This document shows, piece after piece, positions 3,138-26,460 of a stretch of DNA of 26,935 bases. Every line of letters starts with the position of its first letter. Position 1 is the first letter of the stretch. Both the position numbers and the translations under genes were made by a program. The notes under the pieces were generated by a model, which was not told the DNA's origin, searched no databases, and worked only from the letters and a program-made list of their open reading frames with translations. The stretch is from Holosporales bacterium (GTDB lineage: Bacteria > Pseudomonadota > Alphaproteobacteria > BNTO01), in the NCBI GenBank assembly GCA_031290075.1, contig JAITOG010000033.1, positions 1 through 26,935 on the forward strand, in the 5' to 3' direction.

Positions 3138-3312
3138 TTAGAAGCTGTCTTCATGGATAATTTTAACCGGTGCTCGAATCCTCGTGAGGTTTGGGGGAAA
3201 TCTGTGATTTTCCCCCCCAATGCCCCTCACGTACGTCAAAGTACACTCCGGTTCTGCGCTCCGTTTTTCCTTAAAAACCCTCCCTTAAAATATCCATAAA
3301 GACAGCTTCTTA
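3138..3312. repeat. Palindromic element type A2 (RPE-like core with agaagctgtcttcatggata arms)
   Basis: Arms agaagctgtcttcatggataattttaa / ttaaaatatccataaagacagcttct. The core is nearly identical to the 26270 copy and homologous to the type A1 copies. Confidence 0.9.
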
Positions 3313-6600: not shown

Positions 6601-8439
6601 CTATTTTCCTAAGACACTTTGCAAGGTATTTGCTTCAGCATTATTTTTAAAAGGGCCAACTAATACTTTATAGTAAACTTGCCCATTTGGATGCTTTTCA
6701 AAACGAACATTTATATTATATTTACTTAATATCGTATGCTTTTTTCTTAGGTTTAAAATTTCTTTATTTGCCTCTTGCTTAGAGGTAAAAATACCTAACT
6801 GAACATAAAAAAGCTTTTTAGGAGAAACATTATTTTTCTCCGTTTTTTCTCCCCGTTTTTTGATTTTGGAAGCACTTTTTTCTTTTTTTATTAATGTTTT
6901 CTTTTCAACAGTATTATTGGTTGTAAGTGGTTTTCCTTCCAAAGAATTATTTAAAAAAGGAGGAGGCGTTTTTACTTTAATCTTTTCTTCTTCTTTTTTC
7001 TCTAAATATTTTTTTAAATTCTCTTTTTTTGATGATTTATTTGAGTAATCTAAATATTCATCACTTTCAACTTCTTCTTTTTTTTCTTCCCCTTCTCCTT
7101 CATCTTCCCCTTTCTCTTCATCTGTTGGAATATTTGGAGCAAAATTGGTTGTTGGAAGAATATGTTCTTCGCTTTTTTCCTTTTCCTCATTGTGATCAAG
7201 TTTGCCATAAATAAGCTCATCTTGATAAGGAACAAGCTGCATTTCAGATTTTTCTGGTTTTACTTTTATTTTACTTGGAGTTTTAATAACAATTAACTCA
7301 TCATTATTAGATGTAGAAACACCATTGTATACTTTCAAAAATATAATCCCACAAATTATTGAAGACAAAAGGAAAGAGGAAAAAATTATTTTTGCTTTTA
7401 ATATTCCATTAATTTTATAAGGTTCACTTATAGCTTGGGCTTTCTGAAATGAAGACTTTTTCTGTTCTTTCGGGTTTATAATAGGAACTACTTTTTCTGG
7501 GGGATCTAATTTTAGGTTTTTAAAATCGCGAATTTGTTCATTTAAAACTTCTGCTTGAGCATTATTATTATTAACGCTCTTTTTATTTTCCTCATCAAAT
7601 GAAAAGTCTAGTAAACGTTGTTTAAGATCGATTTTGAATGGTTGCGGTTCTTGGCCTAGATTTTTTAATGGCCATGTTGTTGTTTCTTTATATTTTTGCT
7701 GAGAATACGAAGTATTATTCAGGTATGGCGAAGTAGCAAGAGAGAGTTTATTAGACTTTCGTAATTCAATAGGCTTCTTTCGTAACTCAATTTCTTCTGG
7801 GAATTTGTTAGTTGCTTCGATACTCGAATCCTCATGGGGTTTGGGGGGAATCTGTGATCCCCCCAAATGCCCCTCATGTATATTTAGCATACTCCGGTTC
7901 TGCGCTTCGGATGCTCCTTCAAATTTGCCAGAAAAAATAGGTTTCGAAAGTCTATTATAATTATAATTATTATTATCTGAGAAACCTGTTGATGGAAGTA
8001 TACAATCATGGCTTGAGGGAAGGGGAGGAGGAAGTATTTCTTTGTGTATAGATTCTTCTGTAACTTTAGGTGATGGCTGAATTGTAGGAATGAAAACTTG
8101 AGGCTCTTTTCTATTTTTTAAACTACCATTAATCCATTCGGAAAAAGGATCATAATTTTGTTTTTCTTTTAATTTTCCCTCTTTTTTAGTTAGTTTAGGT
8201 GAAGATTTTTTCAAAATAGCGCTACTTTTTGATGCCTTTAATTCGGGGAACAAAGTGTTATGTTCTAAGAAATTATTTTTTTCTGTAGCTTCAATAGGAA
8301 GGTCAGAAAAACTATTTTTTTTTGTTTTTTCTCCTTTTAAAAAATCTACAGACGACGAATCCCATGGATCTTTATCATTCTCTAGAGTATCAGAAAAATA
8401 CGAATTTTTTTCTTCTAGAAAAAAAAATCTCATAACCAC
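6601..8439 (-). CDS. SPOR-domain cell-division protein, FtsN-like, with an in-frame palindromic element insert
   Basis: Single TM (IIFSSFLLSSIICGIIFL) followed by IKVKP..VPYQD..IY. C-terminal SPOR motifs FYVQLGIF...YYKVLVGPF. Long low-complexity N-terminal region. Confidence 0.85.
   Translation of the reverse strand: MVMRFFFLEEKNSYFSDTLENDKDPWDSSSVDFLKGEKTKKNSFSDLPIEATEKNNFLEHNTLFPELKASKSSAILKKSSPKLTKKEGKLKEKQNYDPFSEWINGSLKNRKEPQVFIPTIQPSPKVTEESIHKEILPPPLPSSHDCILPSTGFSDNNNYNYNRLSKPIFSGKFEGASEAQNRSMLNIHEGHLGGSQIPPKPHEDSSIEATNKFPEEIELRKKPIELRKSNKLSLATSPYLNNTSYSQQKYKETTTWPLKNLGQEPQPFKIDLKQRLLDFSFDEENKKSVNNNNAQAEVLNEQIRDFKNLKLDPPEKVVPIINPKEQKKSSFQKAQAISEPYKINGILKAKIIFSSFLLSSIICGIIFLKVYNGVSTSNNDELIVIKTPSKIKVKPEKSEMQLVPYQDELIYGKLDHNEEKEKSEEHILPTTNFAPNIPTDEEKGEDEGEGEEKKEEVESDEYLDYSNKSSKKENLKKYLEKKEEEKIKVKTPPPFLNNSLEGKPLTTNNTVEKKTLIKKEKSASKIKKRGEKTEKNNVSPKKLFYVQLGIFTSKQEANKEILNLRKKHTILSKYNINVRFEKHPNGQVYYKVLVGPFKNNAEANTLQSVLGK
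7770..7954 (-). repeat. Palindromic element type A1 (RPE1-like) inserted in frame in the SPOR gene
   Basis: Homologous across its length to the intergenic copies at 15476 and 21037. Translates as RLSKPIFSGKFEGASEAQNRS...HEDSSIEATNKFPEEIELRKKP. An 18-nt end duplication extends it to 7752. Confidence 0.9.
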
Positions 8440-15100: not shown

Positions 15101-15349
15101 TTAAGCGATTATGTCAGGAGGAGCACAATTAACGAGCTCATCAATTTTCTTTTTTAAAAAAATGTATTGCTGCTTTAAAAAAGATACTTTAGAACTATTA
15201 ACAAAATTTTCCGAATTACTTTCTAAATCAAATATTGATTTCTCAATTTCATTTAAATCATTTTTTAAAGATTCTAGTTTTTTAAAAATAAAATGCTGAG
15301 GATTATTTTTGTTAACAGATTTTCCACAAGTTTCACAAATAGTCATCAT
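15101..15349 (-). CDS. DUF465/YdcH-like small coiled-coil protein
   Basis: 82 aa from ATG 15349, with a coiled-coil LESLKNDLNEIEKSI...LKQQYIFLKKKIDEL and the C-terminal PDIIA typical of alphaproteobacterial DUF465 proteins. The 174-aa track ORF is extended upstream into a repeat. Confidence 0.65.
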   Translation of the reverse strand: MMTICETCGKSVNKNNPQHFIFKKLESLKNDLNEIEKSIFDLESNSENFVNSSKVSFLKQQYIFLKKKIDELVNCAPPDIIA

Positions 15350-15475
15350 TCTAATAGAAAAGTAATTAACAAAGGCTCTCTTCAAAATTCTATGAAAAAA
15401 AATATAGAAAGTAAAAGAAAAAAGTAAATTGTGTGTGTTATTTTTTTTGTTCTCTTCATTTTCCGTATTTTTGAA

Positions 15476-15659
15476 TAGATTTCCTTCGAAACTAATTTCT
15501 TCTAGCAAAGTTGAAGGAGCATACGAAGCGCAGAACCGGAGTGTATAAATACATGAGGGGAATTTGGGGAAATCTGTGATTCCCCCCAAACCCCATGAGG
15601 ATTCGAGCATCGAAGCGACGAACAAATTTGCAGAAGAAATTAGTTTCGAAGGAAGTCTA
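15476..15659 (+). repeat. Palindromic element type A1 (RPE1-like), intergenic copy
   Basis: Arms tagatttccttcgaaactaatttcttct / agaagaaattagtttcgaaggaagtcta. Nearly identical to 21037..21221. Confidence 0.93.
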
Positions 15660-26269: not shown

Positions 26270-26460
26270 TAAGAAGCTGTCTTTATGGATTATTTTAACT
26301 GGTTTTTTTACGTCAAATCCGGTGCTTGAATCCTCACGGGGTTTGGGGAAAATCATAGATTTCCCCCAATGCCCCTCACGTACGTCAAAGTACGCTCCGG
26401 TTCTGCGCTCCGTTTTTCCTTAAAAACCCTGAGTTTAAATATCCATGACAACAAGCTCTA
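26270..26460. repeat. Palindromic element type A2, second full copy with a degenerate right arm
   Basis: taagaagctgtctttatggattattttaa...cccctcacgtacgtcaaagtacgctccggttctgcgctccgtttttccttaaaaaccct...aaatatccatga, matching 3138..3312. Confidence 0.88.

What the first reader, a model, noticed from the sequence alone, without database searches (positions are those of the whole stretch)
7752..7954. RPE1-like palindromic element translated as an in-frame insert in a cell-division protein
Seen: a full A1 element (185 bp; 183 net if one TA is a target duplication, i.e. 61 codons) lies inside the SPOR ORF without breaking it. It encodes roughly residues 163-223 (RLSKPIFSGKFEGASEAQNRSML..HEDSSIEATNKFPEE), and an extra 18-nt end duplication (IELRKKP-IELRKS) also keeps frame. 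The two intergenic copies have stops or frameshifts in this reading. Established: Rickettsia palindromic elements insert in frame into proteins. From memory, RPE1 peptides read like FEGDTERRTAAY..VREDSSTGSTYKLP, which this resembles. Inference: RPE-type protein accretion is operating in a lineage that appears not to be Rickettsia itself, given the T6SS genes.
Basis: partly seen in the sequence, partly recalled or inferred. Interest (0 to 1): 0.8.

Follow-up and report, generated by a model that had tools for sequence, protein, structure and literature searches.

The report
RPE1-type repeat translated inside SPOR protein
A 185-base mobile palindromic repeat of the Rickettsia RPE1 family sits in frame inside a SPOR-domain cell-division gene, and in about 27 other genes, of a termite-gut Holosporales-like symbiont, so this way of adding peptides to proteins is not confined to Rickettsia.

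Summary
Window 7770-7954 (minus strand) is a 185-nt palindromic element, followed by an 18-nt duplicated end (7752-7769). It lies inside an unbroken 612-aa SPOR-domain ORF (6601-8439).

It belongs to a family with 174 loci, 2.2% of this 820-kb MAG. Thirty-five loci in 27 ORFs of 150 aa or more carry it, and 34 of the 35 use the same strand and phase. Hosts include DapF, GatB, MurD, Lgt, PheT, GltX and BioD.

- **Insertion, not ancestral sequence:** family orthologues of the SPOR protein, GatB and DapF lack the segment.
- **Read through:** copies in ORFs have only 3n indels (10 of 10). Intergenic copies mostly do not (12 of 13 are not 3n).
- **Start upstream:** a conserved N-terminal motif lies upstream of the insert.

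The RPE1 reading holds, with one exception. TIGR01045 does not score this copy. A Rickettsia helvetica RPE1 protein aligns end to end (BLASTP 2e-8, hhalign 98%, DNA 70.6% identical), with one 14-codon gap that is a nested 42-nt hairpin. A sister genus passes the TIGR01045 cut-off.

A family member is deposited as "Holosporales bacterium", and the GTDB order holds 10 species. NCBI already labels RPE1 domains in related MAGs automatically. I file it as a new member of a known kind. The earlier scan notes I saw all come from this same window.

The parts
6601..8439 (-). SPOR-domain ORF, FtsN-like in layout, 612 aa. The probable start is the ATG at 8433, preceded by AGGTGG.
   Evidence: orthologues in all 9 family genomes
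7770..7954 (-). RPE1-family palindromic element, 185 nt from TAGAC to GTCTA, translated as aa 163-224.
7752..7769 (-). 18-nt duplicate of the element's end, which adds 6 codons in frame.
7837..7878 (-). Nested 42-nt G+C hairpin module flanked by a CCTCATG repeat. It encodes GHLGGSQIPPKPHE (aa 190-203) and matches the single 14-residue gap against Rickettsia RPE1.
8341..8370 (-). Conserved N-terminal motif DPWxxxSVxF (aa 24-33), upstream of the insert. D, P, W and F are invariant in 9 orthologues.
7603..7638 (-). Second conserved cytoplasmic motif (I-D-x-x-Q-R-L-x-D, aa 268-279), downstream of the insert.
7336..7389 (-). Transmembrane helix (aa 351-368).
   Evidence: (AF2 helix, pLDDT 81-91)
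6610..6819 (-). SPOR domain (aa 541-610).
15476..15659 (+). Intergenic copy of the same element, broken in the coding frame by a TAA and a -1 indel.
21037..21221 (+). Intergenic copy of the same element, frameshifted by -2 and -1 indels.
3168..3274 (-). Core of a second element type with other arms. In another frame it reads TERRTGVYFDVRE, as Rickettsia RPE1 does.
26307..26423 (-). Second copy of that second element type.

Best explanation
A non-autonomous palindromic mobile element of the RPE1 family inserted into the cytoplasmic N-terminal tail of an FtsN-like SPOR protein and is read through as 61 extra residues, plus 6 from a duplicated end. The mechanism is survivorship, not design in each gene. 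The element is stop-free in only one of its six frames. Its length from TAGAC to GTCTA is 3n+2 (188 nt, or 146 nt without the nested hairpin), so if one terminal TA is a target duplication the net gain is 62 or 48 codons. Insertions in that strand and phase keep the host gene open. The others break it and are lost. Afterwards only the frame is under constraint, and the peptide drifts. In this protein the insert sits in a poorly conserved segment that is predicted to be unstructured, between two conserved motifs, so it is most likely a tolerated passenger. Shown here: homology to RPE1, the insertion itself, frame maintenance, and a start upstream of the insert. Inferred: actual translation, the TA duplication, and neutrality.
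For: Family census: 174 loci by nhmmer, 2.2% of the genome. Only one of the six consensus frames is open. 35 loci in 27 ORFs of at least 150 aa, 34 of 35 in the same strand and phase. Hosts split by the insert: DapF, GatB, Lgt, BioD and PheT each match their family model in two stretches; GltX, MurD, an EngB-like GTPase, a family-4 uracil-DNA glycosylase and a cation-efflux protein also carry it. GatB and DapF orthologues are contiguous across the site in every family genome where they were found. Internal indels are 3n in 10 of 10 cases in ORF copies and non-3n in 12 of 13 in intergenic copies (Fisher p = 1e-5; p = 1e-3 if the three end gaps of the BioD copy are counted). Substitutions by codon position are 53/40/39 in ORF copies, with no third-position excess. 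(length - 2) mod 3 = 0 in every full-length in-ORF copy. SPOR orthologues lack the insert, and the N-terminal motif upstream of it is conserved. AF2 gives pLDDT 35-42 and no secondary structure over aa 1-340, against 81-95 for the TM helix and SPOR domain. RPE1 homology.
Against: There are no RNA or peptide data for this organism; the only run found holds DNA contigs. TIGR01045 does not score this copy or any translated insert of this genome. No empty site was found, so the TA duplication is not shown. The AF2 alignment has only 9 rows, so low confidence is weak evidence of disorder. No single Logan contig bridges 7853-7890.
Confidence: 0.85

Rival explanations
1. The gene is functionally split. 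Translation of the working protein starts downstream of the insert, or the N-terminal part is dispensable, and the long open frame upstream is a leftover.
For: The N-terminal 340 residues are poorly conserved and predicted to be unstructured. TTG and GTG codons exist between the insert and the TM helix.
Against: The D-P-W...F motif upstream and the Q-R-L-x-D motif downstream are conserved in orthologues and lie in one frame. The insert, its 3-nt deletion and its 18-nt duplication all preserve the frame. 26 other genes carry the element inside conserved domains where no restart could rescue them.
Confidence: 0.07
2. The element is removed after transcription, by hairpin-guided cleavage and joining or by ribosome bypass, so it never appears in the protein.
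For: The RNA would form a very stable hairpin (-64 kcal/mol, z = -5.7).
Against: If the element were excised, indels inside it would not need to be multiples of three, yet 10 of 10 in ORF copies are. The element matches no Rfam family; the best match in 7650-8050 has E = 0.21. From memory, not checked here: Ogata et al. 2000 found RPEs retained in Rickettsia mRNA.
Confidence: 0.03
3. Assembly artefact: two loci were joined through a shared repeat.
For: The element has more than 100 copies, and Logan contigs break in its core.
Against: Both halves belong to one orthologous protein in 8 relatives. Both junctions are supported at similar depths of 9.2 and 8.2.
Confidence: 0.02
4. The segment is ancestral or convergent protein sequence, not a mobile element.
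For: None found.
Against: It is 85-90% identical in DNA to dispersed copies in the same genome, while the rest of the protein is 22-31% identical to its orthologues. It is absent from all orthologues at this site.
Confidence: 0.01

Closest known systems
RPE-1 of Rickettsia (Ogata et al. 2000, Science 290:347; TIGR01045), as summarised in PMC10969869 and PMC1779305
   Same: It is homologous in sequence, with matching ends (TAGAYTTCTTTC...GAAAGAARTCTA) and a shared core. Without the nested module the unit is 146-147 nt, or 48 codons. It is dispersed in intergenic DNA and in frame in unrelated housekeeping genes, always in one frame.
   Different: The host is a Holosporales-labelled termite-gut lineage, not Rickettsia. 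This subfamily carries a nested 42-nt hairpin (14 codons). It also has a +1/-1 pair of indels that re-reads about 10 codons (AYEAQNRSVL in place of DTERRTAAY), so the curated model no longer scores it.
Protein-coding palindromic repeats of Wolbachia (Ogata, Suhre and Claverie 2005, cited in PMC1779305)
   Same: It is an RPE-like, in-frame palindromic repeat outside the genus Rickettsia.
   Different: Those are in Rickettsiales. I could not read that paper or compare sequences.
RPE1 domains labelled by NCBI's automatic annotation in Holosporaceae MAGs (P0021, P0034)
   Same: They are the same element family in related genomes and share the GAxxAQNRSV reading. They match the profile of this genome's inserts at E 1e-10 and 2e-7.
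   Different: Those are short stand-alone ORFs named by a pipeline. I found no paper describing in-frame inserts in this lineage.
Other bacterial MITEs that make in-frame fusions (ERIC, BOX, QMITE1; review PMC10969869)
   Same: They are small non-autonomous inverted-repeat elements that can extend or fuse ORFs.
   Different: There is no sequence relation. According to that review, such fusions are occasional there, whereas RPEs make them at an unusually high frequency.

Membership tests
RPE1 (TIGR01045) | The translated insert scores at least 30 bits on TIGR01045. | tested here: not met
   No hit at E <= 10 on the SPOR insert or on three inserts without the hairpin, and none at E <= 1 on whole host proteins. 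The best six-frame hit in this genome is 27.8 bits, with stops. It is met in sister genus G005: 40-44 bits, and 37.8 bits inside MurF.
RPE1 (TIGR01045) | Sequence homology to a bona fide Rickettsia RPE1. | tested here: met
   R. helvetica P0045 against SPOR aa 164-224: BLASTP E 2e-8, 21 identities. hhalign against the insert profile: 98.3%, E 2.6e-14, 50 columns. DNA: 70.6% identity over 143 positions, end to end.
RPE1 (TIGR01045) | A palindromic unit of about 100-150 bp with inverted ends. | tested here: met
   The unit is 146 nt without the nested module and 185-188 nt with it. It has inverted ends, and the fold has z = -5.7.
RPE1 (TIGR01045) | Many dispersed copies, both intergenic and in frame in unrelated genes. 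| tested here: met
   174 loci; 27 host ORFs; 34 of 35 in one strand and phase.
RPE1 (TIGR01045) | The insert is retained in mRNA and protein. | not testable with these tools
   No RNA run holds the locus. Indirect support comes from the 3n-only indels.
MITE mobilised by an IS630/Tc1-mariner transposase | Terminal inverted repeats. | tested here: met
   TAGACTTCTTTCGAAAC... at one end and ...GTTWCGAAAGAAGTCTA at the other.
MITE mobilised by an IS630/Tc1-mariner transposase | TA target-site duplication. | tested here: inconclusive
   23 of the 25 copies with both ends listed begin and end with TA, and (length - 2) is a multiple of 3 in ORF copies. No empty site was found.
MITE mobilised by an IS630/Tc1-mariner transposase | An autonomous element with matching ends. 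| tested here: not met
   This genome holds only DDE_3 relics. IS630-type copies in relatives have unrelated ends.
SPOR-domain division protein (FtsN-like) | A C-terminal SPOR domain. | tested here: met
   PF05036 at 39 bits against a cut-off of 21. AF2 pLDDT 84-95 over aa 541-610 of the model.
SPOR-domain division protein (FtsN-like) | A cytoplasmic N-terminus, one TM helix and a periplasmic linker. | tested here: met
   A single confident helix at aa 343-370 of the model.
SPOR-domain division protein (FtsN-like) | A role at the septum. | not testable with these tools
   'Cell-division protein' is inferred from the domain alone.

The most novel reading that the evidence does not exclude
RPE1 is not a Rickettsia invention. 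It may be a long-lived element that moves between intracellular alphaproteobacteria. Copies in a Holosporales-labelled lineage and in Rickettsia are still about 70% identical in DNA and equal in length, which is more than neutral vertical descent across orders should leave. In this lineage it is still evolving as a peptide cassette, by picking up a nested 14-codon hairpin and re-reading 10 codons through a compensated frameshift. If so, these genomes, which also hold IS630-type transposases, are a place to look for the unknown enzyme that moves RPEs.
Probability: 0.3. Interest if true: 0.65.

Novelty: new member of a known kind. Interest (0 to 1): 0.5.

Why it matters
The one review I read that covers the topic (PMC10969869) describes in-frame palindromic elements in Rickettsia only and leaves other prokaryotes as a possibility. 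PMC1779305 adds a single family shared with Wolbachia. Here the same RPE1 family has entered at least 27 genes of a very small genome in another order, including core enzymes of translation and cell-wall synthesis. This widens the host range of the phenomenon. It gives independent replicates for asking where proteins tolerate 48-62 added residues. It also bears on whether RPEs are ancient or transferred. In practice, the curated RPE1 model misses this subfamily, so annotation pipelines will leave such inserts unexplained.

Tried and rejected
- **TIGR01045:** no hit on the SPOR insert, on three hairpin-less inserts, or on whole host proteins.
- **Plasmid collection:** no match with the element's DNA, and none with G005's RPE1 peptide.
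- **Finding a Rickettsia genome in the held set:** five small class-level genomes had no RPE1 hit. In an even sample of 401 genomes of the class, only G005 passed the cut-off. One sub-threshold hit there is in the unpublished genome G048.
- **Exact look-up of the SPOR protein:** it is not on record.
- **PMC186582 (Ogata 2002):** the paper is not held.
- **Empty-site search:** joining the flanks of 25 copies gave no spanning match in this genome.
- **Autonomous parent:** Pfam Transposase_1 found nothing, and its control was silent too. DDE_3 found only relics here, and IS630 copies in relatives have unrelated ends.
- **Rfam:** no family matches the element.
- **Read laying:** no empty-site allele appeared. 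Contigs drop rare variants, so this is not evidence of absence.

Full report
**The observation**

The minus strand of window 6601-8439 is one open frame of 612 codons. Its last 70 residues match Pfam SPOR at 39 bits against a cut-off of 21. Inside it, 7770-7954 is a 185-nt unit that begins TAGAC and ends GTCTA. The next 18 nt, 7752-7769, repeat its end, so the protein reads IELRKKP followed by IELRKSN. The unit encodes aa 163-224.

The unit is 85% identical to two intergenic copies in the window, at 15476-15659 and 21037-21221. Both are broken in this frame by a stop or by indels that are not multiples of three. As RNA it folds at -64.4 kcal/mol, z = -5.7.

Contigs that Logan assembled independently from one termite-gut run enter the element from both flanks without a mismatch and at like depth. 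They stop only in the repeated core at 7853-7890.

**The family in this genome**

The window is contig C106 of an 820-kb, 33% G+C, 78%-complete MAG. A nucleotide profile built from 22 full copies finds 174 separate loci, which is 2.2% of the genome. The consensus is stop-free in only one of its six frames.

Thirty-five loci lie inside 27 ORFs of at least 150 aa, with at least 20 aa of ORF on each side. Thirty-four of the 35 are in that strand and phase. The hosts fall into two groups:

- **Matched in two stretches around the insert:** DapF, GatB, Lgt, BioD and PheT.
- **Also carrying the insert:** GltX, MurD, an EngB-like GTPase, a family-4 uracil-DNA glycosylase and a cation-efflux protein.

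One 634-aa ORF holds two copies.

In the family genomes where they were found (8 of 9 for GatB, 7 of 9 for DapF), the orthologue is contiguous across the site. Conserved sequence lies on both sides of a clean gap of about 60 residues.

**Evidence that the copies in genes are read through**

Against the consensus, internal indels in ORF copies are +3, -3 or +9 in 10 of 10 cases. In intergenic copies, 12 of 13 are not multiples of three. Fisher's test gives p = 1e-5, or 1e-3 if the three end gaps of the truncated BioD copy are counted.

Substitutions in ORF copies fall 53/40/39 on codon positions 1/2/3. The frame is kept, but the peptide is not conserved.

From TAGAC to GTCTA the two size classes are 188 and 146 nt. 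Every full-length ORF copy has (length - 2) divisible by three. That fits a TA target duplication and a net gain of 62 or 48 codons. No empty site was found, so the duplication remains an inference.

**The SPOR protein**

All nine other genomes of the family encode a matching protein, and eight were fetched and aligned. They share four features:

- an N-terminal D-P-W...F motif, at aa 24-33 here;
- a Q-R-L-x-D motif, at aa 268-279 here;
- one TM helix with a conserved periplasmic stretch;
- the SPOR domain.

The insert lies between the two cytoplasmic motifs, and none of the eight has it there. The motif upstream is in the same frame, so translation starts before the insert.

G003's orthologue carries its own RPE-like insert at a different place, after the Q-R-L motif. 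That is a second, independent insertion in the same tail.

AF2 on the 9-row alignment is confident only for the TM helix and the SPOR domain. The first 340 residues, insert included, have pLDDT 35-42 and no secondary structure. This is weak evidence given the shallow alignment.

**Relation to RPE1**

TIGR01045 does not score this insert, three hairpin-less inserts, or the host proteins. Other evidence links the element to RPE1:

- A six-frame scan of this genome gives 27.8 bits at a short variant that reads TERRT-AYFDVREDSS in another frame.
- Sister genus G005 has at least 16 hits of 40-44 bits. One scores 37.8 bits inside a 597-aa MurF-like protein.
- A profile of 16 in-frame inserts finds proteins named "palindromic element RPE1 domain-containing protein". 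These come from Holosporaceae MAGs and from Rickettsia helvetica (P0045, E 1e-4 in 5.8 billion sequences).
- P0045 aligns with SPOR aa 164-224 at E 2e-8, with one 14-residue gap. hhalign gives 98.3% over 50 columns.
- The R. helvetica element is 147 nt and 70.6% identical to the SPOR copy end to end. The same single gap falls at the 42-nt hairpin module, 7837-7878.

Two changes explain why the model fails on this copy. One is the nested module. The other is a +1/-1 pair of indels that re-reads about ten codons.

**Lineage**

The GTDB order holds only ten species, all with genomes of 0.8-1.3 Mb. G003 is 100% identical over 2733 nt to a contig of "MAG: Holosporales bacterium isolate Cd354_bin47". 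The run that holds the window is labelled termite gut metagenome. I did not check the T6SS argument.

**What is known already**

A 2024 review describes in-frame RPEs in Rickettsia only and calls it conceivable that something similar occurs elsewhere (PMC10969869). PMC1779305 cites a 2005 report of such repeats in Wolbachia. Full-text searches found no paper that links palindromic elements to Holosporales. The library held is incomplete. NCBI's pipeline has already put the RPE1 name on small ORFs of related MAGs. On that basis I file this as a new member of a known kind.

**Mobility**

This genome holds only relics of IS630-type (DDE_3) transposases. One of them is itself cut by a copy of the element. 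IS630 copies in relatives have ends unlike the RPE1 arms. The enzyme that moves the element remains unknown.

Noticed in passing
L034:2053-2205 (G003, = JAIRNU010000070.1): The SPOR orthologue of a sister genus has its own RPE-like in-frame insert (reads ...GAHEAQNHSVLDVREDSSIGAT...). It lies after the Q-R-L motif, not before it as here, so this is an independent insertion in the same protein tail.
   Followed up: partly
G000:C64:7165-7358: An IS630-type transposase relic (LPPYSPELNPVERFW...) is cut short by a copy of the element. A second relic lies at C30:2437-2520.
   Followed up: partly
window 7798-7891: One Logan contig (depth 8.2) runs from 8400 to 7891, then adds 2 letters and 30 nt that match 7769-7798. 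That is a net loss of 90 nt, or 30 codons. It may be a shorter in-frame allele, or a graph path through another copy. With only 30 nt on the short side it is not evidence.
   Followed up: no
G000:C30:2938-3124: An intergenic copy with this family's arms still reads TKRRTGVYFDVHE, as Rickettsia RPE1 does. It is an intermediate between the RPE1 frame and the re-read frame of this subfamily.
   Followed up: partly
G000:C39:2023-2316, C18:10713-10989, C61:802-1075, C62:9020-9298: A subfamily has about 80 extra nt after model position 50. This looks like a second nested insertion inside the element.
   Followed up: no
window 15101-15625 (-): A 174-aa ORF begins inside the antisense strand of the copy at 15476-15659. 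Either the element supplies a start or N-terminal extension, or the ORF call is too long.
   Followed up: no
L072, L085, L086 (JALRGP01, 'Alphaproteobacteria bacterium MDM.26'): Another MAG carries elements of about 150 nt with the same GAHEAQNRS reading, so this reading is not private to one genus.
   Followed up: no
L062, L063, L066, L067 (G070, G240; another family, 2.5-Mb genomes): Elements here have ends nearly identical to this family's (TAGACTTCTTTCGAAAC...GTTTCGAAAGAAGTCTA) but a different interior. They score 25-28 bits on TIGR01045.
   Followed up: partly
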